DNA of 64,000 nucleotides from Phoronis australis. Taxonomy: Eukaryota; Animalia; Phoronida. The stretch spans positions 124,001 to 188,000 of the forward strand of contig NMRA01000448.1 in NCBI GenBank assembly GCA_002633005.1, written 5' to 3'. The notes below the pieces were generated by a model. The model saw only the letters and a program-made list of their open reading frames with translations. It had not been told where the DNA came from and did not search any database. Below, one piece after another: positions 1,708 through 63,353 of the stretch (position 1 is its first letter; each line of letters opens with the position of its first letter). The position numbers and the translations under genes were made by a program.

Positions 1708-2349
1708 TCAATTCAACTTACCTTCTACAACTGATTTTCGTGATTTCTCGCTGTCCGATTCACTGGCGCTTTTGAACGTAACATGCGCCTCCTTTTGACG
1801 GCTAAGCAAATGAGTCTTTTTATGTGGCTCTGATGGCACCGCAAGACTCGGAGCAAGATTGTTCCGAATTTCTTCTATTTCCTCGTAAGTGGAATCGGGC
1901 AGTATTTGTTGCGGAGAGTACTTCTCTCTACTACCTGTTGATGTATTGCTTGTGGCCTCGAAGCGTTCATACTCACGCATCAGTTTTGAGAAACTTTTCT
2001 CATAATACGGAGTACTGGAACTTATTGGCCGCTGCAAAACTTGACATATACATAATGATTGACCACAAATGACGCATATGTTGCTTTCGCCATTAAGTGT
2101 GAATTCTGAATCTGTCTCCCATATGCTTTCGCATATTGTGGACGTAACACATGTAGATACGTCATCATCAGTGTCCATGTAGTAGCTTCCACCAGTGCTG
2201 ACGGAAACGCCCGAAAAGGACCGATTGCTCGAAGCGTGGTGACGTCTCTCGCGCTTTTCGTTGCCATAATAATGCGATTTCGTGTGGTCCAACTCGTCGA
2301 TTATTGACTGACACTGAGCATTTATGCTGTGTAAATTTCTGCTACTCAT
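1708..2349 (-). CDS. Uncharacterised Ser/Glu-rich protein, probably one coding exon
   Basis: 213-codon ORF; upstream acceptor ttttgttttag at 2390; strong donor G|GTAAGT at 1722/1721; small Cys cluster CVICGQSLCICQ. No family recognised and no convincing downstream exon found. Confidence 0.5.
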   Translation of the reverse strand: MSSRNLHSINAQCQSIIDELDHTKSHYYGNEKRERRHHASSNRSFSGVSVSTGGSYYMDTDDDVSTCVTSTICESIWETDSEFTLNGESNICVICGQSLCICQVLQRPISSSTPYYEKSFSKLMREYERFEATSNTSTGSREKYSPQQILPDSTYEEIEEIRNNLAPSLAVPSEPHKKTHLLSRQKEAHVTFKSASESDSEKSRKSVVEGKLN

Positions 2350-5319
2350 TATTGTCAGCCGTTGTAATCATTGGAAGTGTGCGCCATGCCTAAAACAAAA
2401 AGAGTACAACTGAGTAGACCGACACACGAGTCTAGTGTCATACATCTAAAAGAACTACTCTTTACATGGGTAAAATTAATTACATTGAATTTGCACTTTT
2501 AGGTTGATTAACTCCAGTAAAGTTTGAGTTGTTGACGGTTTCGATGTTTGTGTTAGTAAAGGAAATCAAGTCCTATCATGTTAAGGACTTTTGAAAGACC
2601 GATTTAATGAGTTTAAGTGGCTTAGTTCACTTTTGGCATCTAATTTCTGAGGAAATGCAGTTTTAATTGATCAGCAGTTCTGTATGTGATCAAATAGTCA
2701 ATTTAGTATTTCACACAAATTTTTAATTACCTTTGGTACAGTGTTTGCGCTCTCACGCTCCAGTGACCAGTGGCATGAAACAGACACAAATAGTAGCTCA
2801 ATGACTACGTTCCTCAATTTTTCACCGCATTCGTGAACTTGTGAAAACCCTAATTGAACTTTCTATGTCTTCATTTCTAAGTCAATTTTTAGTTTAGATG
2901 CAAGTGGAGAGCTGAGTTCTCAATATTTTTCTAAATAGTGCACTGTCCCTAATTAAAAGACTGTTTCCCTATTTATTTTCGTTGAACAGTGACAGTTTTC
3001 AATTGTACTATCATATAATGTCATTAGTAAAAGGAGACCTCATCATAAATACCAAGTTATAGGAAAACATGACATTTGTCAGTAAACAAATTCACAAATG
3101 CACAAAAGATTAGTAACAGAACTAGAAGTCGAGTCTCTATTTGAGATTGCTTCATGCAACCAGTCACAGCACGCTCATTTAGTGTTTTAAAAATAATCAT
3201 TACTGATTTGGATGTAATTATAATTAGGATGCTTACTTTACAGAAATGTCAAACACTTCTCATTTAAGTCTTTTTTCGAGAAAAGCTAATTTCAAATGAG
3301 AAGGTGTTGTCTAGTAGGCTTACTGTACAACTTGCATTTGAAATTATTTGTCCTTAGAAACTTTAGTTCACCCACTAGACAAGGGACCTCGTTTATTTTA
3401 TCAGTTAGAGAGTTTAACAGTTACGTAACCAGTGCTCGATTTGGCAACCTGCAAGTCGCCAATGCGGTCACCTCGGAGAAACCTCAAATAGCCACTAAGT
3501 CGTCACAGCGAGTATCAAAGTCAAACAATAATTTCACCGAAATTCGTATCATAATTTGTTAGAATTAATAACATTTTCCTTTGGTGTAATAACCTTTGAT
3601 TCACAAGTGTATTTGTCACCCTCAGCAGTCAGTACAGTACCCTCTGACCAAAGATACTATATCTATACCTGTATCTATAAAATCTTTGCTCTGACGCAGC
3701 ACCACCTATACTGAAAGTGGCCCTGTGGAACGACACACAGAATTCCGTGTGTGGACATTGATGCGCATGCCTAGGTCAGAAAATACCGATCACATCACCA
3801 CCACTTGCACACGCTTTTATGCACTGTACTAGTTTGGGCTTAAGCCACCGGATCGGGGGTTCCTAGATTTTGTCCACTTTGATCACTACCATTTTAGTAA
3901 ATTGCAACTATTCAAGCTCAAAGGTGGTCGCGCGCGCCATATTAGGGGGCACACTACAGTTATTACAGGCTTTTGGCTGCCGATGCACACCGAAGTAGAG
4001 ATGGTCCCTTTCCTAAAGTTCTAATCGAGAGTCTGAAAAACAAAGGGTTTTGTAGCATTCCCAACCACAAGCACTACTCATGATAACTGAAACTTAATTA
4101 CGCTACAGACTTTTAATCGATTCATTCACATCATAAAAAAGTCCAGGCACCCAAAAATATTAAAAAAAACAAATTTGACAGTTTTCTCCCCAAAATTACC
4201 ACTTCCCTGCAAGTGCTAGGAAAGATCCGACTACAGATTCAGAATGCTCGTACTCTCTAGATTCTAAAAATGGGGTCATAGTATGGCCCTTATTAGCTAC
4301 TTTTTGGCAATTTTGATCTGTCTGACAGCTGCCTGAGATCGCACCAGGTTTCTCGGACAGCAGGCGACAGGGGTGAAAGCAAATGACAGCCACCATTTTG
4401 CATCAAAAGTAGGTCACGGCTAAAAAACTTAGCTCTTCTCATTCAAAAACACAAGTAAATCAGTTTCATGGCATTTGTTTTCAACAAATTCCTCGAACCA
4501 CCCGCCAAACCTGATATACGCTCTGTACATAAATTCTAGGGACTAGACTAGAAAATACCCTGTGGCTACAGGCTAACTGTACAGTGCTACCTTACGTATA
4601 ACAGTAAACAGAAAGGGGGTTCCTCATATTTCAACCAATGGGAATGACTGAATATTATGACGTCGGTTTCAATACTTTAACTAATGAGAATCCGTATTAA
4701 ACAACAACCTAAACGTGCTACCTTTCGTAGCACTGTGAAAGCATTTGGGTCTGGGCCTGAGGAAGCGTCCGCTCGACTTCCATTGATTCGAGCGGACGGT
4801 CTTATGTGCATAAATTAGCAAGTCCTTGACCTCAATACACGTGTTTAGCCTGAGGCAAAGATCCTTATCTAATTATCGCGTTGCCTGCCATTGTGTACCG
4901 TAATTTTCACACAAATTTCAATTTGGAAACCACCGTAATCGAATTCTTCATGAAAAATAAAGATTTATTCTTTTTTGAACGGAAAATGTTGACCCAGAAT
5001 TAAACGAAATACCCCGGTGAAAAGTAAACTTGAACAACAGTTTACTGGAAATTCTGGGGATTCTTCAGGAGACTCTTACGTGCATCCTTGTGTTGTGATC
5101 CTGATTCGTAACAGAATAAAATTTAAATTTTATTCGTGTTAATAACGTGTTTATCATCCATTTTAATGTAATAGAATACAATTTTGACAATGATAAGTCA
5201 TGTTTAACACCATTCCACAGTGCTACCTTTCATAGCACTGTGAAAGAGTGTAACCAAACATGCGCATTACAACAGGAAGTCAACAGAGGGAAGTTGGAAT
5301 TGTTCATTCGACAAAAATC

Positions 5320-17284: not shown

Positions 17285-29239
<11,955 letters not shown>

Positions 29240-31095: not shown

Positions 31096-44116
<13,021 letters not shown>

Positions 44117-45018
44117 CTAATATGGGAATCGATTACAGGCCGCGGTTTAATATTTGAAAAATTCTGTGATTTATTTCATTTTTTTATTCTTTTGAGACAT
44201 TAATATAAAGAAAAGAGTACTTTGTTATTAATAAAATATCCTAAAAAGGAATTCAGTAAATGTTTTCTCTAAGAAACTGTGTCTCTCAATCACTGTTTCT
44301 TAAACAAGTCAATCGTTTTTCAACGAAGTTACAACTTTGTTGTAAATTTAACGTATCCTTCGCACATCTTCCAAAGTCAAAGAATCATAAAAACAGTTTC
44401 ATATGTATTTACGTGGCCTTAAATGTGATCATCGAGATAACTTCATTGTTGCCCTGGAGACATTGTTTGGCGGCCATCTTGGATTTTATAAGAGATTATT
44501 CATTGATTATCACGATTATATCGGTCGAGTTTCTGTTTATCCTTACCGATGTGTGAGAAGGTAATGTGAGACTGACAGAAAGGCGACATAAGTTCATTGT
44601 GCTGATATCTGTGGTCAGGTTGAATCTTTTATTGCACTGGAAAATCTGTTTGTGTAAACAGCTATCCTAAATTTTTGCAAAGGAATGCAAAGGCAATCAG
44701 CGAAATTGAAACAATTTCTTATGCTGCTAAGCTAAGGGCTGTGTGGGCAAGCAGGAATATATTATATGGCATTGCTTCAACTGATTTTTGCTGAAGATCT
44801 ACAGAATTTAAATGAAGCAAAAGTCACTATATGAAGAGGTCAAGAAATTGGTTTATAACTCCTATCATCGTGGTGTTGATCAGTCTTTGGACTAGACAGT
44901 GACCACCATCTCTAGCTAGCTGGTTAATAGAGACAGTGTAGGTCTTATAGGCGCTTCATTCACCATAAACGTTTCGGCAAATTATGTGTCACACCGACTA
45001 AAACATTAAAGTCNGCTA

Positions 45019-47850
<2,832 letters not shown>

Positions 47851-48304
47851 GTAATGTGAGACTGACAGAAAGGCGACATAAGTTCATTGTGCTGATATCT
47901 GTGGTCAGGTTGAATATTTTACTGCACTGGAAAATCCGTTTGTGTAAACAGCTATCCTAAATTTTTGCAAAGGAATGCAATCAACGAAATTGAAACAATT
48001 TCTTATGCTGCTAAGCTAAGGGCTGTGTGGGCAAGCAGGAATATATTATATGGCATTGCTTCAACTGATTTTTGCGGAAGATCTACAGAATTTAAATGAA
48101 GCAAAAGTCACTATGTGAAGAGGTCAAGAAATTGGTTTGTAACTCCTATCATCGTGGTGTTGATCAGTCTTTGGACTAGACAGTGACCACCATCTCTAGC
48201 TAGGTGGTTAATAGAGACAGTGTAGGTCTTATAGGCGCTTCACTCACCATAAACGTTTCGGCAAATTATGTGTCACACCGACTAAAACATTAAAGTCACA
48301 TGTG

Positions 48305-48844
48305 TATAGTAATAGCCGAGATTACCCGACCCGGGGATCAAACCCGCGACCCCCATAAAACCGGCAAGCGTGCTAACCATTCAGCTAATAGGCAATTGCT
48401 CGTTAGCGAGTAGCTAACAGAGGCTCATATAATTCACCGGAAGCACATCTACAACATTCCCCCCTTTCCTACGGAACGTGCACGCGACAGGAAGGTGAAC
48501 ACCAGGATGTCTCGCATACAGGTCATCGACGTCCCTTGGTACCTTTACCACCACAACACAGGTGAACACAAGGTTGTCTCTTATACACAGGTCCTTGACT
48601 CCTGGAACCTTCCACGCACGCTGTCCCGAGGTCCGTGGGTACTAGTTGGCAGTGCTTCATCGGTAGATCATCCGTTTGCTGACTACGCCATTTGTAGTAA
48701 TAGCCGAGATTACCCAACCCGGGGATCGAACCCGCGACCCCCATAAAACCGGCAAGCGTGCTAACCATTCAGCTAATAGGCAATTGCCCGTTATCGAGTA
48801 GCTAACAGAGGCTCATATAATTCACCGGAAGCACATCTACAACA
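48305..48844 (-). mobile_element. TRIM (miniature non-autonomous LTR retrotransposon) with tRNA-like sequence in its LTRs, Helenus-like
   Basis: Two 152-bp direct repeats (48305-48456, 48693-48844) with TGT...ACA termini (one end mutated); PBS TGGCGTAGTCAGCA 2 nt after the 5' LTR; PPT AGGAAAGGGGGGAA abutting the 3' LTR; flanks tgtg/cgtg; A box TAGCTGAATGG and B box GGTTCGATCCC within the LTR. Confidence 0.88.
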
Positions 48845-49524
48845 CGTGCGTAGAGGGATACTTTGAGGTAGTCCATGTCTTTAATCACTTCCAACTCGAA
48901 CAATACTCCCGTTATCAAACTTTTTCTTGGAGCAGTCCTTCGTTTAGTTCCCAAAATTGGTAACTCCCCATTTTTACACGACGCACGTCAGGGGATATGA
49001 CGTCATACCACCTACCAATCACGCTCAGGATCACGGCGCCACTATATCGTGTGCGCTGTTCCACCTCAGGGATCCGAGGTCCGTTACTTCAATCCGCTGA
49101 CGTATATTTGAACTGCTTGAAGTTCGACGTCAGTGTAGCTCCGTAAGGGTAAAATCGGTCCTTCGTGCAGTAAGCACCAACTTCTGACTTTTCATAAATT
49201 TTGATTTTAACCGCCCATGCTTGGCTTACTGCCCACCCCGTGTTTTAAGATTCCCTATTTAAGTGCCCTGGGCGGTAATGCGGACAAGTACGGTAGAACC
49301 TCGTCAGTGCCTCAAAAAATAATTGCCAAAATTATAATAAATTTTCAGTGCCTTCTAATGTTGTTTCTGAATGCTCATATTTTTTTTTTAAATTGTCTGT
49401 TATTAGGTATGGTACTGAAGTTGAGAATTTTCAGAATTTCATAGTGACAGTTTACCTCATCTTTTATGGAACAAAAATTTTGCTCGTCTGCTATAACATT
49501 AAATCATTTTTTCAGTGACCAACT

Positions 49525-49713
49525 ATGAGTGGAAACAGAGATACTCTGGACCCTAATGATTTAGGGGAGCGAGAGGAAGGGGATGGGGCCACAGATCCTG
49601 AATCTCATGTTGAGTACCAGCCCCCTCTGTCAGCTGTACCCCCACGCGTTGTCTTGCATGAAGAGAGTCAAGTAGAAGTGTCTGCTAGTCCAGCATTTCA
49701 GTGTTTGGATGAC
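49525..49713 (+). CDS. CCDC146: Coiled-coil domain-containing protein 146 (MBO2 family), first coding exon
   Basis: Acceptor ttttttcag at 49515, ATG at 49525, phase-0 donor GAC|GTAAGT. AVPPRVVLHEESQVEVSASPAFQCLDD resembles recalled human AIVPTINIQDERFVDLSETPAFIFLHE. Confidence 0.85.
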
Positions 49714-52393
49714 GTAAGTATTTGACTTGTAGATTGCTTGTGTGAGCACATTCATCCAGTTAAGATCTCGAATCTACACTCGATATGTAACTCGAAAATT
49801 GACCATCACATGGTGTTATTTGAAAGTTTACTCAAAGCACGCCATGCGATTGGTCAATTTTCAAGTCTTGAGTGAAGTTTGGTGGTCTCGGGCCCTGATC
49901 TAAAATTTTTGCAGTCGAAAATTTGTTTTATTGTGGTAAAATATTTTAGTTTTGATTCTGTTTAAACCAAGATGTAAGGATATCAATAACCAAAGGACTT
50001 TCAAGTCAAGAAAAGAAGTTGTCTTGTTGTGTGAAAAGAACCCCAGATTAAAAAAACGATGTCATGATTGAGTTTGTATATTACAAGGCCTAAACATAAT
50101 ATAATTTTTGTAAAATCAAACCTGTCTACATAACTCTAATATATATCAAACAATTTTATAAGTAAATAACAATTGAATTAAATATACTTGTTGATAAAAT
50201 CATAAACATTTTCATGCAATAGCATTTTAGAAATTAATATCATTTTAAAGATATTTCAAGGCTTATTCACAAAATTGGCCGTTTTTGTAATACTTCATGT
50301 ATGTCTTGCAAAATACTTTATCTTCATTCTCGGGAAACTTCAAGTACGAAATAAGTACCGCGTAGTGAGAAAAAAACATTTAGCAGAACCACCTCTGGCT
50401 TTCAATGGCATAGAAATTTGTTTACTTCGTTTCCAAGGTCAAAGGTTACAGAGCTGTCACTCAAATCGAATCTCCCGCTTAGCTTATACACTTTCCTACA
50501 ATTCATAGTCCTTTCATTCACGGAGACGCCATAAGATTGAGTTAACGAGGTGTACATAGCATGGAAAGAATCGCCATGGAAAACAAAGGCAAAACATATT
50601 TTTAACCCGAGTGAGTTGCACGTCTTCTTGTATTCGACCATTGATAACATCAGGAAGTATGCACCGAGTCACTGCGCGGATTCTGGCACATCACACAGCA
50701 AATTGCGAAAAAAGATAAATTCTCACCCAAACTCATTCATTTCACTGGTAATCTGTCGTTTCGCTGTTTCAATCTTGTGTTCACGGCGCGCTTTATCCAC
50801 AGATACTGGTTTGTACTCTATATTTCGTACTTGGATTCTTTCAGTCTCCATGGCGCGTGCTTCAGTACTAGTACTGTTGACCTGTTTTAATAGGTCAAGA
50901 GGTCAACTCCTCCCTTAACCAGGTTTCACTCAATCATTGTTAACCAACTTCCCAAAATTAGTGATAATTAGGTTAATTACGCACAGCCAATTCAGACTGA
51001 CATCATGAGTTAATGTTCAGAGAGCTAACAAGGTAATAGCGTATAGGTTATATTGACCAAAATCAAGTTTTCACCTAATAAATAGTCGGAAACCTTCAGT
51101 TTTTACTACTCGTTACATTTCCGGCTTTTCTCGGCTTTGGCAAATCGACTTGATTTGACCTAAAGGAACACAAGTTCTCAAATACAGCTTTGTGGATTTC
51201 ACTGAAACTTTCCAAACTTGATATTTATTCATCAATCTCAAAAACCCTATTGGGATTTTTGATACAAAGGCCTCATTTTCATGTAATGTAACACAGACAA
51301 ATACGACTGCTACTTTTTACAAACATACCTTACGTTTTGCAAGTTGATTTGTCATAGAAACCAAACTAAGAGACTAATTGAAAATTTCTAGCAGTGTTTT
51401 TGATTAAGTAATTGATGAAGTTTTCATTTATAAATGGTTTCATTAAAATTGACCTTTGTGTTATTTTGCTATGAAACCTTTATTAAAAATGAAATTTTAA
51501 ATTAAAAAGGGGGTTAATGTAAAAATAATAATGAGACATAAAAATAAAATATATTTTTATAATACTTGATCGTTGTATATACTTTTACTAGTTGACAAAG
51601 TATACAAGTTACAATGGAGGTCACTAGGTTTGAGATAACCTTAACTAAATGCTGGCCAGCCTGAACTAAACATTTAGAAACAAAATGCACCATTTGCTCT
51701 GCATTGTTTTGCAAATTAGGTTGTCACTAGTAAGATTACAAGATTTGTCTTTGCATTATAAAATCTGTTCCAGTCTTATAGGTAATTCACACTTATAGTA
51801 GCAACTTTTAAACCAATAGGTGGTATTTATTATGAACATAAAATGACAAAAAATTCATTCAACAAAGAAAAAAATAGCTACAATATTAAATATTAATTAG
51901 AACATACATACTGTACACTCACTGAGTCTGACACTAAGAGGCAGTCATCCTAAAAATGGACTTACATCAACTGCCTGGTGTTAAACTAAAATAGTCAAGT
52001 TGGCAGACATTTTCTGTTCAGAAATTTTTATCTTCTTTGGGAATATTGACATAGAATATTCCATTAATACACAATTTCCTTGTTAATCTGCCGTGCAAAG
52101 AGTTAAAATAGCAAAACGTTTTGTTCAGGTTGATGTCGCTCTAAACCAGTGTGTTACAATATCAACTGTGTTTCCAGAATGAAGGTGGATCCAGAGTTTC
52201 TCAATAAGTTGCTAAAGACATAATTATGCCAACATGTGATGACAGCTGTCTTGCCTTCTTCAACAAAACTAAAGGGATACGCAAATGCCCCCAAGAGTCA
52301 TCTGTACAGTTCTTGTCTATTTTGTAATGCATGTCTCTTTGTAAATATCTTCTAAAAGTCCAACTGAAGATTCCTCTCATTTGAAAATGTCTT

Positions 52394-55300
52394 CTAGAAG
52401 TTCAGTGGTCTGATCTTGATCTCTGTTTTCCTCAGTGACTCTTCTTGATACCAGGGCTGCCACATGATGCCATCGTTCTTATCACTCAAATGTATTCCTC
52501 CCTGGTAGTAGTTACCATTCAGATTAGCCACTCCACAAAATTTGAACCACCATCCACCTGAAATTATCGATAGCGTATATATGACGTGAAGCGGACAGTA
52601 AGCCTCTTTTCCATGACTTGATCCAGTTTTAAATGGGATATGCTGCTCATGTCTCATCAAAATAATGTAACTCTACCATAGTTTTTCCTAATGTTTCTTA
52701 CCCCAGCTTAGGGTATTTGGCCAAATCTGGCTCTTATGTAATCTTAGTGTAGGATTTTGGGTTTAGTCACAGTGTTGGCTAAATAGCCATGCAGCAAGAT
52801 GAGTACATTCAAAGTCGGTCAAACAACACTCGCATTAGATTTTGTTTCTCAGTTTGAAAATTTCTTGAAGTTCAGGAAATTAAAGCTCCAACTATCTTCA
52901 CAGGTTATTTGCCCAAGGTTCCAAAGTAGCATCACTGCATTTTTATTTTTTGTTTTAGCTGGACTTGGTTACAGTAATTTGCTTGTAATTCCCCAAACAT
53001 TCACACTCCCTTGGGGACTAGAACTAAACCACTTTGACAAGTAATTTAATTTGACCTCCCTGGACCATGCAATAACAACCTGTTCCAATCAGTTTTCCCA
53101 AGCCTAGAAATCATTTCTGAGTAAAGAAACAACATGTGAACGGTTTTATAACAGTCTCTAGTAGTGCCCTGAATCTAGATTTGACATGATGTAGGTTTAT
53201 TCTGCCTTTCAAGAGAAAAATTTAACTGTTCAAAACTTTTCTGACAAATTCAGTCTTATGGCTCAAATTGGGTGGTTCTAAATTGAAGAGGACTCCATAC
53301 ATCAAGCACAATGCCTGAGTACAGCAGCTATGGTTGGTGGTGCACATTCCAACACAGCTCCAACACAATACCTGCCCAGTCAGGAAAATTCGTACCTAAG
53401 ACAAATACCAGATGATAAAAAGTCTTCCTGAGACAATTCATGTTTGACCAACATCCTTTGGTCACACGTTAGATGATACCGCTAGTGAGAGAAAGTCTGA
53501 CATGATATCACAAATTAAAGTGAAACGCCAGAATTCCATCTTAGGACTAAACTTGAAAGGCATAATTGTCTTCCGGAGATGATTCCTAGAAAGTTAAAAT
53601 ACGTCCTATTGTAAGCCCCCTCCTCCCTACTGGGTTAAATCTTACCTTTTCGTTCCTCTGCACAATTCGACCCTTTCACTAAATCATTATCACTGTCGTA
53701 GGTTGAGAACTGTTGCCTATTCTGCTGCAGGTAAACATTGGCGTAATGAAAAGCGTCACCAGCCGTACCCTCGTATTGACCCACTTCAATTCGATATTTG
53801 TCAGTTTCGTTGCTGAGCTGAAACTATATTCAAGAGGTTGATCGATTTAACAATTAGCCACTCTGTTTGTTGTAAATGATTGTTGGTTTTATCAGATTAT
53901 ACTTTTTGGGCTCTCTCCCTCAACATCAAGTTACTGACATTAGCATGTATCTTTCTGTAGTTATTTGGTATTTTAGTACTAAATGTGAGACTATATACTG
54001 GGTTCCATTTAAGTGGAACCAAAAAACAGCTAGTACCTTGATGTGGTGAGAGTAAATGCAGCCGTTTTGTTCATATCTCAAGGTACGGTTCTTTGGCTCT
54101 AAAAGGATCTTAACTTAGCATTTTCAGTACTAAATGTGCTCATTATGATGCAAACATAGCATGATTTTTCATGGCCTGCATGCCCAAACTCATACACACA
54201 ACATTCTTCATATTCAACCTTTCCTTGGTTAACTTAATAATTACTTTGTTCCCTTTGTATTTTGAATTGCATAGGTGCAAGTTAACTAAAATACTTACAT
54301 CTTTGTACATTGCATATCTGTGTTTGTTGTGGAAGTCCCACATGTCAAACCTAATTTCAGTGTTCCCAAACTTGTTGAGCTGGTGAATCTTCTCCAAACC
54401 AAGCCAGAATTCTCCTTCAGGATTTCCAAATCCTTCCTGTGGAGGATAAGTCACTAAGAATTGATGAAATGTGCTGGTAATGCTTTGCGAACAGTATACA
54501 CTTAGGAACATGGGTGTTATCAAACGGTTAGCATGGGCCTTGTCTTGTGAAGTTTGCTTAATTTATTGGCATGGCAAATATGCGTCAAATTTGTATAAAA
54601 AATAGCTTGAATGCTTATTCATTGGAAAGCTGAATATTGTTTTTTATTTTGATGAGAGTATTCCATTATTGTAACGTATGAAGTTCTTTCCAGTTGAAGG
54701 CTGTAAATACAACTTGGCAGTCCAGCTTGTAGCGGGAAGCAGAAATAAAAAACATATTTAAGTGTTTGGATACTCACATGTAAATCAAAAGAGCGTATTA
54801 TTATACATTTGTGTTTTTACTCCAAATGCAAAGCAATGAAACTTACTATGCCAACACAGACATGTTTGCGCCAACTTTTGATTTAGACCATTTTCACTTT
54901 AAACTAATGTTCCTTCACTTTACAAGTGGCCTTCACATCTGGCTTGTTTGGCAAGCCATTCTGCATTAAAAAGTTGGACTTAAAGCGGGTCTAGCCAGTT
55001 ACATGAACCCGATCTCCACCAACAACGAACAGAATTAGTGGTTTGAACCAAAAATTAATTTTTTTCATTGTACAGTACGAATCACTTTAACTATAAACAA
55101 GACAACCTTTCACCTTATAATCATTCCAATCTCTTCTGAAGTTCTCAGCGCCTCCCTTACGTCTCTGTATAACTGTCCAACCGCCACCATCTGTGAACAT
55201 GTCACAGTAAGAGAAGAACTGCATCTCCTTGTCATGAGGGTTGGGCCGGATCTCATAAACACCGCTGTCCCGCAGGCCTCTGTTTCGCATCAGAGCACAG

Positions 55301-58300
55301 TCTTGTCCAATCACTTCAGATTAGAAATAAAATGGCCACTAATTTGTGATGTTTGAATAAAAACAATAACTTCTCTAAAGTGTAGCGACATGTTTCTGTG
55401 GTAAAACATCCACCATTGTCAAACTTTATTCAAAGAATGGATGCCAGGATGGCTACAGGTACAATACACAGAAAATTCCAAAACAAACAAAATACCAGAA
55501 CATGATTGCATGATAGCAATCAGCGAATCACAAGTCAGTGTAAAAGTGTCAATGACTCAAGAAAACTTGTGCACTGAGTGAAGGCGTTTCCGAACACCGA
55601 ATATGAATGGTTTCATGCATGCAGTTTCAAGTGATAGCGCTTCGTATCACAGTCAATAATCGTAAAGATGTGTTCCCCAACAGCCTTTCTACAAACAGCA
55701 TTGTTTTCAAAGTGTCTAAAGATGTGTGACTTCTTATTACTAACTAGATGTTCCTTCATCCTTGTAAGTCAAGTGGCGAGAATTGTCTCACCTTGCTTGA
55801 CTTGACCACGGCTACCATCAAATTAATACACAACATGGGATTTTAGAGTGAAAGGAATATCTTTAACACCAAGTAAACTTGAGATCTTGCATGACTTAGT
55901 AGTATACAAGCTGAACAACCATCGTTTTGCAAAACCTCAATGATTTCAATTAACGCTGTGATATCTTGGAGTAAAAACCCGCATAATGCATTCTGAAATA
56001 ATTAGTGTTGCTAAGGCTTAGGTATTGACGGGGCTTTGTATGAAGATCAGCTCATTCACTCGATCTCTGAAGACGCGTTCAATCTAATTGGCGAGGAATT
56101 GAATTCCTAACTACATCGTTTGCTAATCTCTCAAAATTACTATGTAATAAAGTCCAGGTGTTATTACTCTTAAAATATCTGTCAAGCGTTCTTATAAAAC
56201 CAGTCTTGCAGGAAAATGACATGAAACTGTTGAAATAAGTGTGTAACCTAGTAAAAGTACTTTTACGGTACTATGATGTCACAACTGTGTCAACATTCCG
56301 ATTTTAATCAATGAGTACTTCCAAAACGGAAGTTGTTTGTCGATTTCAGTCTCATTGGATTGTGCTTTTCCATGAAGTATAGTGTCTAATACTGAAGCCG
56401 TCACATTGTTGGTAGCCATAAAAACAATAGGTATACTGTCCAGACTTTGTAGAAATGTTGTTAGTGGATAAAACAGCACTACCGCTTCATAAAAATGGTT
56501 GGGGTTTAAGAAAGGTCTATGCCTGGAAATTTTCCTATCAGTTTTATTTTAACAGTAAATTGCCTTTTAACAAAAAAAATGGTAATTTCGGTCACACAAC
56601 TTTATGAATATTATTTAAAGGAGCGCTTCCGTACACAAAATGTATCTAAAGATTCCATACTGCGAAAGAAATTGATTTCAATCTCCAACAAACCATTCAA
56701 GGCACTGTCAAGTAAACAGACTGTCAAAATCCCATCAATGTTGAGAAGGTTGCCCAACCTTTTTAAGATTTAAGGCTGCTCCATAAGATTGGTGGGTGAT
56801 CCCAATTTGTTATAATCATAGAATCAATTGCTATAGTGATGAGCAAAATTTTGAGACCCTTTTTAGAGATGGTCAAACAATTTCAGAATTTCTATGTTCG
56901 GTCTGCAACTATTTANGCAGTTTCAAGTGATACCGCTTCGTATCACAGTCAATAATCGTAAAGATGTGTTCCCCAACAGCCTTTCTACAAACAGCATTGT
57001 TTTCAAATTGTCTAAAGATGTGTGAATTCTTATTACTAACTAGATGTTCCTTCATCCTTGTAAGTCAAGTGGCGAGTTGTTTCACCTTGCTTGACCACGG
57101 CTACCATCAAATTAATACACAACATGGTATTTTAGGGTGAAAGGAATATCTTTTAACACCAAGTAAACTTGAAATCTTGCACGAGTTAGATACAAGCTGA
57201 ACAACCATCGTTTTACAAAACCTCAGTGACAATGATTTCAATTAACGCTGTGATATGTTGGAGTAAAAACCCGCATAATGCATTCTGAAATAATGAGTGT
57301 TGCTAAGGCTTAGGTATTGACGGGGCTTTGTATGAAGATCAGCTCATTCACTCGATCTCTGAAGACGCGTTCAATCTAATTGGCGAGGAATTGAATTCCT
57401 AACTAGATCGTTTGCTAATCTCTCAAAATTACTATGTAATAAAGTCCAGGTGTTATTACTCTTAAAATATCTGTCAATCGTTCTTATAAAACCAGTCTTG
57501 CAGGAAAATGACATGAAACTGTTGAAATAAGTGTGTAACCTAGTAAAAGTACTTTTACTGTACTATGATGTCACAACTGTGTCAACATTCCGATTTTAAT
57601 CAATGAGTACTTCCAAAACGGAAGTTGTTTGTCGATTTCAGTCTCATTGGATTGTGCTTTTCCATGAAGTATAGTGTCTAATACTGAAGCCGTCACATTG
57701 TTGGTAGCCATAAAAACAATAGGTATACTGTCCAGACTTTGTAGAAATGTTGTTAGTGGATAAAACAGCACTACCGCTTCATAAAAATGGTTGGGGTTTA
57801 AGAAAGGTCTATGCCTGGAAATTTTCCTATCAGTTTTATTTTAACAGTAAATTGCCTTTTAACAAAAAAAATGGTAATTTCGGTCACACAACTTTATGAA
57901 TATTATTTAAAGGAGCGCTTCCGTACACAAAATGTATCTAAAGATTCCATACTGCGAAAGAAATTGATTTCAATCTCCAACAAACCATTCAAGGCACTGT
58001 CAAGTAAACAGACTGTCAAAATCCCATCAATGTTGAGAAGGTTGCCCAACCTTTTTAAGATTTAAGGCTGCTCCATAAGATTGGTGGGTGATCCCAATTT
58101 GTTATAATCATAGAATCAATTGCTATAGTGATGAGCAAAATTTTGAGACCCTTTTTAGAGATGGTCAAACAATTTCAGAATTTCTATGTTCGGTCTGCAA
58201 CTATTTACGAAAATTATCTTTTTATGAAATTAAACTAATTTTGTAAATAAAATTTCCGAGGTACCTGAAGGTTGGTTCTTCCTTGGAGTGCTTGGTTTCA

Positions 58301-61300
58301 TCAGGTAGATGTATTTGTCACCTGTTGCATAACCATAATACAAGCCTTCAATGTTGCTTAATCGCCGGCTCAGACTGGTAAAGTTCTTCCTATATTCACT
58401 AGCATAATCGTCCAAGCTGAAGAGAGGAAAGAAAACAGAAATGCTATGGAACTTTATGCAAGAAAAGAAATCTAACTTCATAGGGTACTTTGGCTTCAAA
58501 TTTCCCTGTTCTAAATTATAATTGATACAAAGTAATTGTTCATATCATACAAACATGCCATTTGTTACAACATTTGTTTGTAAAAGAAGCAAATTCCTTC
58601 ATTTGTAAATCTGTCCCTGTGGAGTGAATACATGGGACCTTTGTTGAATTGAGCTAAATAATTATAGATTATCGTTAAGAAAGTTCATCTTCTGTCATTA
58701 AGTTTCGCTACTTTCCATAATTTGTTGCCTTTTATGATATGGATTGACAAGTTAAGCTATCTTCTGATTCTCCAAATTTTCACTTTTAAATGTGCATACT
58801 TTCACCTACGCCCATGCCGATTTTTCAATTTCTCAATTTGTATTTGTATTAGTAAAAAAGTGTTGTTATTTACCTTGGAGTTTTGATAACGGTCACAATT
58901 TTATCCACTGATGTGTTGTTTTGGGTGGGTTTTCGCAACTTCGTCACTTGTTCAAACAACTTCCTCTGTTTCTTCTGCCCACGTTTCAACTGCTTTCGTA
59001 AATCGGCGACTTCTTCCTTCAACCATCTCGTCACTTCTGTATCTGACCTCTGCAGCTGTAACTTAACCACCTGACGGGTCAAGTTGGCTATCTGCGCTGT
59101 GTGATTTACTGGAGCCTCCTTCTGGGTTACCGTCTTTACTGTCTGATTGACCAATCCCTGCAGTTGCCACCTCAGTTCGTCCAAATGATCAAGTGTTACT
59201 GATCGGTGACCCAATTCATCTAGTTGCAGCTCCAGTCTGTTTAACCGAGTGACATCCTTTTTTGTTTGATTTTGCAAAACGTCAATCCTTTTCTTCAACT
59301 GTTTTATTTCCATGTCATGTTCCAGCTCCAAGCGACCAACACGTTCGTCCATTGCATTCCTCAGCTCGTCTAGTTCAAATCTATGTTCCTGGAAATTTAA
59401 AGAGACGATCACCTATTATGAAATTTATTCAAGTACAGGACGATTCTCCCAAAACAAGCCCCAAACTTTTGTTAATATTTTTTCCAATAGAGGCAAAAAC
59501 TTAAGATCTTGAAGGCTGACAATTTTATGTATTGAGCTCTTGCTGATATTGAACGTTTTTAATGCTAGCATTTTCAGCGGCGTCTCGGTGATTTTCCAGA
59601 GGCTCATTGCATTTAGTCCAATGAAGTATGAGGAAGCCTAGGTGAGCTGAGAATAATATTTATAGTCTAACAACAACAAAGCACTTTTACAGTAGGTGCT
59701 TGAAATGTCCCCCAAGATAGCATTTAAGCGCCTTTCCAAATTGAAAAACACTTCTATATCTGTCAAGCAGCGTTGAACAATTTTTTCATAGCGCATGCTA
59801 CAGCATTTGTTCATTATAGAATTATGTAGATTTATACAAAGTTTTGGATCACTAGCTCAAGTAGAAAAACAATTATTAGACAGTATTTGGGAGCCAGTTT
59901 CGGGAGAATCACCCTTTATGAAGTAAAATTTCACAGTGGGCAATAGGGTGAATTATCCTTCCTGGAGTTTTTTACAAGCTTGGATATTTTTTCTGGAAAT
60001 GCTTTCATAGTATTTGTAAATGTTTACTCTTACCTCGGGCATTTTGGTACTTAATCTTAATACCTATCCTATTTTTCCCTGCTGATCTTATCAGAACCTG
60101 TGGCAACAGCGAGGCTTACCATTTAAGTTATTTTGGGAACAAGTCTGCTAATTACTGAAACAGCTGCATTTATGTAGTGTTCCATGTGAAGACTACGTTT
60201 AATTATGCTGAGATAAAAAACCGAGTTTGAGTTTGTTTACGTTTTTCAGCCTGCTTGTTGGTGGATTAAGTCATTTTGATTCTTAATGATTCAGCCACCT
60301 TGACTTAACTACCATAATGTACTGGTAATTAAAGCTTGTTGATTGCTCATAGCTTAGTAAAGAGTTTAAGGCACTGACTTGTGAAGATACAAATGGTTGT
60401 GCAGGGTAGAAACGTTGCCAGAAATTTGTAACCTTCACATCTGCTTGGTGAACATAGTGTGATGATATATGTAACTGCTCTTACCAATCAGTCCCACAAT
60501 TCAACAGTCCAACCTCGCTGACCAATCACCATTTAGCTAGAATAGGGTAGTAAGCTCCAGATCAGAGCTGTGAAGCACCGGCTTTTCATTTGCATGATTT
60601 AGTAAGGTTTTGCAAGATTTTGCTCTTCTCATGTACTTTTCACATTTTTCATTTCACCTCAGTTGCGCTATCATTATGGTAAAACCTCACCAGTACCAGT
60701 CTAGAATGATTGCCAGCGATGCATCCGTTTCATATTCAAGGTCTTACAGTGTTGTGAATGCCCTTACTTTTTCAACACATTGTCTGTGGCAATAGAAGCT
60801 ATAATGGTACAGAGCTTGAACACAGTATTATAAATTTGTGTCACGTATCTTTGGTTAAAAAATGACGAAATAGAATTTTGCTTGTCTACCAATTGTGTGC
60901 TAAATTGGTGAGATGTTACACTTTAAATGTTGAAACACTATTGAGTTGATAAGGTTGCCTTTGGCTATTGAAAGTAGTATAAACGGGCATTTTATCCAAG
61001 AAGCTGTAAAATTGACCTCAACTTGTTTCTTAATCAGCTCTTGTAGCCTGATGGTAACTTCCAAGATTAATTGCTGCATAAAATCCAACTGTTTATCAAC
61101 CCCTCCATCCATTTCTTGATACTCACTTCTTCATGCAGTGCCCGTACTCACCTTGGATGCATTACCAACAGCGTACTTCATCATTTCAAGTTGAGTCCTC
61201 AACTCATTCACATCCTTCCTGGTAACATTGCTGCCAGTATCGTTTCTTGATGGCCCCTGCTGCGGAGGTAGAGTCAGTCTGAATTGATATTTACAAACAC

Positions 61301-61466
61301 CTTTACTGTTACACCTGTATTTGTACGTGTGAAGCTCATCTTTGGAGTCTTTTTTAGCCTTCTTTCCTTTGGCTTTCGGCCGACCATTCACCATAACACT
61401 TGCCCAAAGTATCAAAATCACCAGTAGGCAAAGCCCTAAACCATGTCGGCTGGGTACGTAATACAT
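52394..61466 (-). CDS. FGL2: Secreted fibrinogen-related (FReD) protein, fibroleukin/FGL2-like, 7 exons, about 553 aa
   Basis: Phase-consistent exons: 61466-61152, 59388-58874, 58416-58265, 55313-55114, 54436-54299, 53823-53646, 52557-52394; total 1662 nt. Signal peptide, [18 protein letters not shown] motif, long coiled coil, FReD motifs [57 protein letters not shown]. Family is secure; FGL2 orthology is inferred. The exon 3 donor (GTACCT) and exon 4 acceptor (AAG) are weak. Confidence 0.85.
55621..58207. repeat. 1.3-kb tandem duplication split by N at 56916 (likely uncollapsed haplotypes)
   Basis: 55621-56915 matches 56917-58207; a single N lies at the junction; intronic. Confidence 0.9.
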
Positions 61467-63353
61467 GGTTGATGAAGTCTTGCTATGCCCAGATGATTTT
61501 TTAGTTTAAATACAACACCAGTGTGTATAAATAACTACAAGATTGCTTTGACTGGAATGTGCTACTTCAAAGGGGTGCTGGGGTTTTTCCATTTTGTTTT
61601 TGAAGTATGACGTGATTTGAGCATGTGTGGCAATGAAATGATTTGATCTTGACCCAAACTTTCTGTGAGGTCATTACTGTAACATTAGCTTATTCTTAAA
61701 ACTTTCTTGTGTATTGGAATTTTGTTTATTACAACATGAAATAAACTCTCCCTAAAAGTTTTTTCCTCGTTGAAAAAGCTTCTCTGTTGGTGTGTTTTTC
61801 ACTAGCAGATGATTCTTAATTTCGAATGTTAATTCTACAAATTACTGAGAGGTTCATGTAAACCAATTTTCCAGGAAATGAAATTGCGAATTGATGATTT
61901 TTGCATTGCGCAAGTTGTTGCGTTTTTTCTCAGCCGGAATCTTTGAACTTCCCTGTTCCTGTGGTATTACTCACTTTGTTACTCAGCTAATCACAGCTGT
62001 CGTATAATAGCACCTGCTTTTATAGTTTTTGTTAAGAAAGAAAAAATTGTCTATTATTTGGATGAACCTGCTTCTATGTTCTCATGACTGGCAAAAGTGC
62101 AAGTCAATTTTCGATAGATGGATTGTCCGCTTCAAGGGGTAATTGTTCCTTGTACTTAGTTACCAAATCACTTATAAAGTGAAAATTGCTAGTGCGGTTC
62201 TCTCACAGCGAATGTATCAGTTAAAAATGGCCTGTGTCTCATACATAGTCATGACCTTTGAAGTTGCACTAAAGTAATAGTAAGAGCACCAAAGTGCCAG
62301 CACAGTACCAGCTGAAAGTGATCTCACTGTGTGCACCATTGGCATTTTTGCTGCTTGCAAATGTGTTGTATAGTGAAATTGCCAGCATTTTAACTAATTT
62401 GTTAGTGGGGTATCAGATCATTGCTTAAACATTCACAGGTCTGCATTTCTGCTGTATAGTGTTGTTCATGTTACTTAGGCAGTTTCAGATTTTTGTAATG
62501 TTAAGCAAAATGGGATATTGAAATTGTATCGTAAGGTTAAGTAAAATAGATGTTACATTTAGTAAGCCATGAGCAGTCTGTTAAGTACAGTTTATAAAAA
62601 CAAACGTCATGGATTATGTAATTTGGAGATCTTAAGGCATTTGTGATTTCGCTAAAAGCATCTTAAATAGAATTGTCAGTACAAAGATATAATATAAATA
62701 TGACGTATTAATAAATAATTAATGAAATTACTGGAATAAATATTTATAATTTGGCTGTTATTTGACGACCATGGTATACGTTAATAATTTTAACGTTTTA
62801 ACATTTTAAACCATAGCAGTTTACAGCTAGTACATAAAAAGTGGTTTTACATTATTTACACTCACATACTGTTGATTTTTATTGGTGATGCATTTTCTAG
62901 AAAGAATATCATAAAGCTCACAGACAGCTGAGGTGTCGTTTGCATTAACGCTATTTGCATTTCATTTCCGAATTTGAGACTAAAATATGATGTTCTTTGT
63001 GTGCTTCATTTCTGGTGAAAGTTGGTCTAGTTAAGGACACCTTGTAGACCAAAAACACATATCACCTGATCTTGGGGTGAACGTTATTTTGTCAAAGTGG
63101 TTCCCGTGCCCAAGCAGAAAATCTAATTTGATTGATCGTTTGGTTTTATTTACGTGTAACATGGAGTAATCTCCCCTGTGTTCAGTCACTGTAAACTGAC
63201 TTCGAACTTCATTAATTGTAAATCACATGACATCAGTCATTTAGTTTCGGAAGAAGATTATCCATGTCAGAAATAATGTGGAAATTGTCCACATTTACTG
63301 TGATTGATGATTCTTGGTACGCTTTTGTAATCACACTTTTTTGCCAATTGCAG

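What the first reader, a model, noticed from the sequence alone, without database searches (positions are those of the whole stretch)
48305..48844. Complete 540-bp miniature LTR retroelement whose LTRs carry a tRNA-like Pol III promoter
Seen on the minus strand: 152-bp LTRs differing at only a handful of sites, a PBS matching the 3' end of eukaryotic tRNA-Ser (..GCCGACTACGCCA, one mismatch), a 14-nt PPT, a 236-bp non-coding interior, a probable 4-bp TSD (tgtg/cgtg), and in each LTR a tRNA-like segment tagctgaatggttagc...ggttcgatcccc in the element's sense orientation. Established (recalled): TRIMs with small-RNA-derived LTRs are rare (Cassandra with 5S, Helenus with tRNA and 4-bp TSD in animals). 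Inference: a young family, possibly unreported in this lineage, that uses one tRNA-derived sequence as promoter and another tRNA as primer, sitting upstream of the CCDC146 ATG.
Basis: partly seen in the sequence, partly recalled or inferred. Interest (0 to 1): 0.8.

Follow-up and report, generated by a model that had tools for sequence, protein, structure and literature searches.

The report
Helenus mini-retrotransposon with shared palindrome
This is a real, gene-less, many-copy jumping element of the Helenus kind described in 2024, likely copied from a tRNA-type promoter in its end repeats; next to that promoter it carries a short self-complementary motif that recurs, with different letters, in most published non-insect animal Helenus families and likely lets the element's RNA pair with itself.

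Summary
In detail: two LTRs 97% alike, a tRNA-Ser primer site, a 14-nt purine tract, a non-coding 236-nt interior, and tRNA-type A and B boxes in the LTR. Reads show many copies with the same ends and unrelated flanks. One correction: the 3' LTR most likely ends in CA at 48303, which makes the 4-bp target duplication perfect on the second haplotype. The element fits Helenus (Kojima 2024) and matches none of its listed families, so it is a new family of a known kind. The scan noted Helenus-like elements before (46 findings in at least 13 genomes). Pol III transcription is untested; mRNA reads show only embedded copies. The added point: a stem-loop plus 10-nt palindrome directly before box A. 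By eye, such a palindrome occurs in 52 of 76 published non-insect animal Helenus LTRs (background 3.8%) and in Ajax, with changed letters. The paper's main text does not mention it. It suggests a shared origin and an RNA-pairing role, neither tested. The copy lies between head-to-head RUVBL1 and CCDC146; no effect on either is shown.

The parts
48303..48844 (-).
48693..48844 (-). 5' LTR, 152 nt, TG...CA
   Evidence: loose ends of sister copies pile at 48693 and 48844/48845 with unrelated flanks
48303..48456 (-).
48845..48848 (.). Target-site duplication, copy at the 5' end (CGTG on +)
   Evidence: an X3 contig at single-locus depth 3.06 covers 48845-48875
48299..48302 (.). Target-site duplication, copy at the 3' end (CATG in window; CGTG in the other haplotype)
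   Evidence: table 3 row 48300 and table 8 record 9; haplotype assignment (inferred)
48677..48690 (-). Primer-binding site for the 3' end of tRNA-Ser (AGA type, label recalled), 2 nt after the LTR
   Evidence: 13 of 14 against the tRNA-Ser template in PMC3299991; sister copies match at the mismatch
48457..48692 (-). Non-coding interior, 236 nt, with an internal direct repeat (48611-48560 / 48545-48493, 78%)
48457..48470 (-). Polypurine tract, 14 nt, abutting the 3' LTR
48765..48775 (-). Box A, 5' LTR (3' copy 48387-48377)
   Evidence: no variant at 12% or more in 4 runs
48723..48732 (-). Box B, 5' LTR, intact (3' copy 48344-48335 has C>T at 48340)
   Evidence: only 48724 varies, C/T at a position the consensus leaves open
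48779..48788 (-). 10-nt palindrome GGCAATTGCC just before box A (3' copy 48400-48391, one change)
   Evidence: only 10-nt palindrome of the element; strongest self-duplex, -21.2 kcal/mol, reached by 0.2% of background 15-mers
48402..48418 (-). 6-bp stem-loop directly before the palindrome, intact in the 3' LTR (5' copy 48806-48790 broken at 48794)
   Evidence: fold; sister copies keep the pairing letter
48745..48748 (-). T4 run between the boxes, only T4 of the LTR (3' copy 48360-48357); candidate weak Pol III terminator
   Evidence: role inferred
49525..49714 (+). Neighbour: CCDC146 first coding exon, ATG 681 bp from the element
47255..47357 (-). Neighbour: RUVBL1 first coding exon (lower end approximate), ATG about 950 bp from the element
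   Evidence: motif; TIP49 domains in downstream exons

Best explanation
It is a non-coding, many-copy Helenus-type miniature LTR retrotransposon that is likely transcribed by RNA polymerase III from the A and B boxes in its 5' LTR, likely primed by tRNA-Ser, and likely mobilised in trans by a Gypsy element. Shown: LTRs, PBS, PPT, boxes, many insertions with the same ends, 4-bp duplication at this site. Inferred: Pol III would start about 10-20 nt before box A (recalled rule), at or near the palindrome, read through the T4 run in the 5' LTR and stop at or before the T4 run of the 3' LTR, giving an RNA of about 430 nt with a short terminal repeat that contains the palindrome. The two palindrome copies would pair, within one RNA or between two, to help first-strand transfer or dimer packaging. 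The stem-loop, present only at the RNA's 3' end, may help Pol III stop there. The tRNA-like segment works as a promoter, not as a tRNA.
For: Anatomy. Independent insertions: in X2, 49 contigs leave the LTR at 48692/48693 and 92 at 48844/48845 with flank agreement of only 0.35-0.41. Summed depth over LTR and interior is hundreds to thousands of times the flank depth (an order of magnitude only). Full elements occur elsewhere: LTR-interior-LTR joints in X2, X3 and X5. Size (542), 4-bp TSD, tRNA 3'-end PBS and the TRGCY/YGG/GGTTC boxes match animal Helenus. There is no AATAAA or ATTAAA in the element. A common variant at 48733 (57-59% in X2, X3) breaks the T-stem without a compensating change, as expected if only the boxes matter. 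The minimum-energy fold of the assumed RNA pairs the 5' palindrome with the 3' one (start and end assumed, no shuffle control). Palindromes as candidate dimer signals and 5'-3' cyclisation are described for Ty1 (PMC3592414, passages).
Against: No direct sign of a Pol III transcript: no place where many RNA molecules begin or end, both strands covered, and 70-81% of RNA reads run on into unrelated sequence; these libraries were read at 18-19% and are not designed for this. Box conservation is not statistically meaningful, since only 5 LTR sites are polymorphic at 12% or more in the DNA runs. T4 sits inside the 5' LTR, where it must be read through. The TTT that follows the palindrome in published families is TATT here. 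The tRNA-like segment folds no better than shuffles (z -0.98 to 0.08). No autonomous partner was found (no genome held). The TSD rests on one site.
Confidence: 0.8

Rival explanations
1. An ordinary Pol II-driven TRIM whose LTR carries a decayed, passive SINE head; the A and B boxes are relics.
For: No Pol III start was seen. A TATA-like stretch lies at LTR 26-30. The segment is not a recognisable tRNA.
Against: No poly(A) signal. The TATA-like letter at 48819 is changed in 53-61% of copies. The boxes are unchanged at their invariant positions, and the same layout recurs across phyla.
Confidence: 0.12
2. A Pol III TRIM that arose independently by a local SINE insertion; the palindrome and stem-loop resemble those of other Helenus families by convergence or chance.
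For: No letter-for-letter match of five short motifs from this element in Data S1. Kojima argues for multiple origins. The spacer after the palindrome differs.
Against: The rule is met by 3.5-3.8% of background positions, and stem-loop plus palindrome by 0.16%. Register and order (stem-loop, palindrome, two letters, box A) are the same as in fish, coelacanth, bivalve and nemertean families.
Confidence: 0.2
3. Assembly artefact or tandem duplication: the two LTRs are uncollapsed alleles like the other duplications of this window.
For: The window holds several adjacent duplications at 95-98% joined by single Ns, one ending at 45013, whose partner ends 5 nt short of the element at 48297.
Against: There is no N in the element. 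It has PBS, PPT and TG...CA ends. Both junctions are present in run contigs, and full copies lie at other loci.
Confidence: 0.01

Closest known systems
Animal Helenus TRIMs (TRIMp3; Kojima 2024, PMC10886601; read: main text parts 1-4 and 6 of 6, a term search, supplement parts 1, 5, 6, 7, 9, 10, 11 of 11 and two supplement searches)
   Same: Two short LTRs with boxes A and B, tRNA 3'-end PBS, PPT, no ORF, 4-bp TSD, length within 311-1263 bp, primer tRNA unrelated to the LTR's tRNA-like segment.
   Different: No family in the animal rows of Table S1 has LTR 152 with interior 236. This PBS motif has 0 hits in Data S1; the published Ser primers are the TGA and GCT types. The palindrome letters have 0 hits. 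The host protein matches none of the named species compared.
Mytilid Helenus-2 families (Helenus-2_MyGa, -2_MoPh, -2_LimFor) and Helenus-1_BaPl
   Same: The three Helenus-2 families have a tRNA-Ser primer, LTR 141-156, interior 226-268 and a similar purine tract; all four have stem-loop plus palindrome before box A.
   Different: Different Ser isoacceptor, different palindrome letters, and no evident interior similarity by eye (no alignment run).
Ajax (5S-type TRIMp3 of nemerteans, same paper)
   Same: By eye, a stem-loop and a palindrome-like 10-mer directly before the promoter (strict in Ajax-1_LiLo, one central mismatch in Ajax-1_NGe).
   Different: 5S-type promoter, 5-bp TSD, tRNA-Leu primer.
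Cassandra (plant 5S TRIM; PMC7215508, passages)
   Same: Pol III promoter inside the LTR, short terminal repeat in the RNA (18 nt as cited by Kojima), self-complementary LTRs in predicted folds.
   Different: 5S-derived, found in plants, and transcription was shown there but not here.

Membership tests
Helenus | TRIM: two LTRs, under about 1.3 kb, no protein coding | tested here: met
   542 bp; stops in all six frames
Helenus | PBS complementary to a tRNA 3' end just after the 5' LTR | tested here: met
   13 of 14 against the tRNA-Ser template; sister copies match at the mismatch
Helenus | PPT before the 3' LTR | tested here: met
   14 purines, 48470-48457
Helenus | Boxes A (TRGCY...YGG) and B (GGTTC) of a tRNA-type promoter in the LTR | tested here: met
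   against the motifs stated; single occurrence in the window
Helenus | Segment is derived from a tRNA (sequence similarity beyond the boxes) | tested here: inconclusive
   No ARAGORN or Rfam hit; T-arm and an acceptor-like stem form in the fold, but energy is not better than shuffles
Helenus (animal) | 4-bp TSD | tested here: met
   One site only: CGTG/CGTG on one haplotype, one CpG change on the other; 4 bp on either boundary drawing
Helenus (animal) | Interspersed family with full copies and solo LTRs | tested here: met
   Loose ends with unrelated flanks and full-element joints; records 6, 7 and 14 are likely solo LTRs
Helenus (animal) | Gypsy partner sharing the PBS | not testable with these tools
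   No genome held; two metagenome scans and one viral scan were empty
TRIMp3 | Transcription by RNA polymerase III | tested here: inconclusive
   RNA reads of 3 runs show embedded copies and no sharp ends; also unvalidated for published Helenus
LTR retrozyme (hammerhead or twister in the LTR) | Self-cleaving ribozyme in the LTR | tested here: not met
   No ribozyme family at E<=10 in Rfam; only 30 nt follow box B
SINE2 | tRNA head at the 5' end, LINE-like tail, variable TSD, no LTR/PBS/PPT | tested here: not met
   LTR-PBS-PPT-LTR layout with fixed ends

The most novel reading that the evidence does not exclude
Most non-insect animal Helenus families (fish, coelacanth, sturgeon, bivalves, nemerteans, this host) and the 5S-type Ajax descend from one ancient Pol III TRIM defined by a stem-loop plus palindrome in front of box A. 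The palindrome is the RNA's terminal repeat and is kept self-complementary, whatever its letters, so that the RNA pairs end to end or dimerises; Ajax arose by swapping the promoter behind this module. That would overturn the proposed multiple origins and give a testable answer to how a Pol III transcript starts and stops in identical LTRs.
Probability: 0.4. Interest if true: 0.6.

Novelty: new member of a known kind. Interest (0 to 1): 0.38.

Why it matters
As a family it only extends the host range of a kind described in 2024. What could matter is the shared module before box A: if it is homologous and functional, it links tRNA-type and 5S-type Pol III TRIMs across phyla, and it names the sequence to test for how such short RNAs are ended, packaged and strand-transferred, which is open for Helenus and Ajax. 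In this genome, hundreds or more of box A/B cassettes are a source of false tRNA calls and possible insulator-like sites, one of them between two head-to-head genes (inferred, no evidence of effect).

Tried and rejected
No whole genome is held, so BLAST tabulation of copies and TSDs and a Gypsy partner search were not possible. Pattern scans found nothing: metagenome contigs twice, viral contigs once. No other copy lies in the window. ARAGORN and Rfam found no tRNA or ribozyme. No RNA holder was listed as on record by the run search; that is no evidence either way. RNA strand bias (LTR mostly one way, interior the other) was not used, because library strandedness is unknown and a few host transcripts dominate. 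A TATA-like stretch at LTR 26-30 was dropped as support for a start site, since over half of the copies differ there. A 15-nt interior likeness to a Tn5 adapter end (recalled) was rejected as contamination: it lies in the internal repeat, and the letter peculiar to this copy stands at single-locus depth in X1. Host lineage: a search with a coiled-coil exon gave no hit; the protein atlas gave no answer; Sec61-alpha is closest to Lingula (444 of 469) but tree supports near the window row are 40-49%. A search for phoronid or invertebrate tRNA-derived TRIM papers gave 0; a search for a source on hairpin-assisted Pol III termination gave no usable paper, so that step is recalled. The scan's own notes hold nothing on the palindrome or on this sequence or place.

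Full report
Observation. On the minus strand the window holds two LTRs, 48844-48693 and 48456-48305, 152 nt each with 5 ungapped differences, around a 236-nt interior; every frame of the element is interrupted by stops. Two bases after the 5' LTR, 14 nt match at 13 positions the start of an oligo complementary to human tRNA-Ser (PMC3299991, one passage seen). A 14-nt purine tract abuts the 3' LTR. Box A (48775-48765) and box B (48732-48723) are 32 nt apart, and the pattern occurs once in the window; the 3' box B has a C>T change. ARAGORN finds no tRNA and Rfam has no tRNA or ribozyme hit at E<=10, so 'tRNA-like' rests on the boxes and a T-arm.

Boundary and TSD. The window contains haplotype duplicates joined by single Ns; 43715-45013 is the other allele of 47007-48297. 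A contig of run X2 carries that allele's letter at 48076, runs into the LTR, and has G at 48300 (allele letters; only 4 of its 6 differences were displayed). A contig of X1 with the window's letter at 48076 also runs into the LTR. So both haplotypes carry the insertion (inferred). If the 3' LTR is drawn to 48303, ending in CA with a 2-nt insertion, the duplication is 48299-48302 and 48845-48848, perfect on one haplotype and with one CpG change on the other. Either way the TSD is 4 bp. The right junction is covered by an X3 contig at single-locus depth. Sample S1 may be the source of the assembly, so these runs are not independent support.

Family. Of the 8 runs listed I laid 7, in two calls. 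In X2, 31 and 18 contigs leave the LTR at 48693 and 48692, and 58 and 34 at 48844 and 48845, with flank agreement of 0.35-0.41, which means many different insertion sites with the same ends. LTR-interior-LTR joints stand in X2, X3 and X5, a different sample. Summed depths are about 60-490 times the flank depth over the interior and about a thousand times or more over the LTR. The tool warns that this is no copy number, so I take it as an order of magnitude. The four LTR substitutions and the PBS mismatch are peculiar to this copy. Only 5 LTR sites are polymorphic at 12% or more in the DNA runs: none in box A, the palindrome or the stem, one at the open C/T position of box B, and one (57-59%) that breaks the T-stem uncompensated. 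Five sites in 152 nt are too few to prove selection on the boxes. LTR divergence is 4 in 150 (2.7%), against 1.2-2.8% between five haplotype pairs: recent, but not new.

Expression. In X6, X7 and X8 (18-19% of each read), reads cover both strands, 70-81% run on into unrelated sequence, and no place shows many starts or ends. These are copies embedded in host transcripts. Pol III transcription is neither shown nor excluded.

Comparison with what is known. Kojima 2024 (PMC10886601; main text parts 1-4 and 6 of 6, supplement parts 1, 5, 6, 7, 9, 10, 11 of 11) defines Helenus as TRIMs with a tRNA-like sequence in the LTR, PBS, PPT and, in animals, 4-bp TSDs, probably moved by Gypsy. All features testable here are met except that tRNA ancestry beyond the boxes is inconclusive. 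No listed animal family has these lengths, and motifs for this LTR start, PBS, box A region, palindrome and interior have 0 hits in the supplement (line breaks can hide a match; parts 2-4 and 8, fungal and wasp sequences, were searched but not read). Repbase and Dfam were not available, so an entry there is not excluded. Searches for later Helenus work gave 4 papers listed, two of them checked by passage, which only cite it. The scan itself noted Helenus-like elements in 46 findings in at least 13 genomes; the twister-ribozyme variant noted there does not apply here.

The shared module. Directly before box A this LTR has a 6-bp stem-loop (LTR 39-55) and the palindrome GGCAATTGCC (57-66), the only 10-nt palindrome and the strongest self-duplex of the element. 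I scored by eye all 76 non-insect animal Helenus LTRs in Data S1 with the rule: five self-complementary pairs with at most two G-U (10 or 11 nt), or a perfect 8-mer, ending 0-1 nt before the TTT that leads into box A. 52 meet it, 2 are borderline and 22 do not; apart from the ctenophore family, those 22 keep a tRNA-like 5' strand instead. The 52 come from ostariophysan fish (13), coelacanth (2), sturgeon and paddlefish (2), bivalves (32) and nemerteans (3), and most also have the upstream stem-loop. The rule was framed after seeing these sequences. In window DNA it is met by 190 of 5,030 positions before TTT and 4,441 of 127,726 positions overall; stem-loop plus palindrome by 210 of 127,870. 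The families are related, so 52 is not 52 independent trials, but the letters differ (centres such as CATG, ATAT, CCGG, TTAA, GTAC, GATC, TCGA, AATT) while complementarity is kept to the centre, and departures are mostly G-U, which points to pairing in sense-strand RNA rather than a protein site or a simple hairpin. One Ajax family meets the rule and the other is borderline. This element has TATT in place of TTT, so it fails that part of the rule but keeps the same register if the outer G-U pair is counted. 'Palindrom', 'hairpin' and 'dimer' have 0 occurrences in the paper's main text; figures are not held, and the scan's notes have none. No alignment or covariation test was run on the published sequences, which leaves homology open.

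Mechanism. Shown: structure, copies, TSD at one site. Inferred: Pol III starts near the palindrome (recalled spacing from box A), reads through T4 in the 5' LTR and ends in the 3' LTR; there is no poly(A) signal. The RNA would be about 430 nt, and its predicted fold pairs the 5' and 3' palindromes (ends assumed). Palindromes as candidate dimer signals and end-to-end pairing are described for Ty1 (PMC3592414, passages), and self-complementary LTRs for Cassandra (PMC7215508, passages). I put Helenus membership at about 0.9, Pol III transcription at about 0.7, homology of the module at about 0.7 and its pairing role at about 0.4; these are judgements.

Host and setting. The host is an invertebrate animal: CCDC146 hits are nemertean, bivalve, hemichordate and echinoderm, and Sec61-alpha is closest to Lingula (444 of 469), with no supported placement among 14 compared proteins (one search used 24). 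Whether the phylum is new for Helenus is open. The copy lies in the 2.2-kb gap between the head-to-head RUVBL1 (ATG near 47357) and CCDC146 (ATG 49525), among other repeats and perhaps nested in one (joints 48288-48301 to 48902). Nothing shows an effect on either gene.

Verdict. A real element and a new family of a known kind; interest 0.38, most of it from the shared pre-promoter module, which rests on a by-eye survey and needs a covariation test.

Noticed in passing
window 7859, 17028, 26609, 37182, 41481, 45014, 56916: Seven single Ns; at least five join adjacent duplicated blocks of 1.1-2 kb that differ by 1.2-2.8%, likely uncollapsed haplotypes. RUVBL1 exons therefore appear twice (44065 and 47354).
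   Followed up: partly
window 52394-61505, minus strand: A fibrinogen-domain gene (PF00147) lies antisense inside the 13.6-kb first intron of CCDC146, and Sec61-alpha (17489-29236, +) faces RUVBL1 tail to tail; both arrangements recall human FGL2/CCDC146 and SEC61A1/RUVBL1 (recalled, not checked).
   Followed up: no
window 48176-48300, 48865-48976, 49016-49295: Three further high-copy repeats flank the element; joints link 48288-48301 to 48902, suggesting the TRIM sits inside another repeat, and opposite-strand joints at 48965-49015 suggest an inverted-repeat element. A 42-nt piece recurs at 17979-18020.
   Followed up: partly
window 48980-49140: Several TGACGTCA-like (CRE-type, label recalled) motifs in a CpG-rich stretch (observed/expected about 1.1 against 0.73 for the window), possibly the shared promoter of RUVBL1 and CCDC146 though it overlaps repeats.
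   Followed up: no
window 48575-48589: 15-nt likeness to a Tn5 adapter end (recalled); judged chance, as it is part of the internal repeat and supported at single-locus depth.
   Followed up: yes
window 1708-2367, minus strand: A 219-codon open frame with no Pfam match.
   Followed up: no
window 40800-47200: Many nested inverted repeats of 100-600 nt at 72-90% identity, likely a MITE family inside RUVBL1 introns.
   Followed up: no
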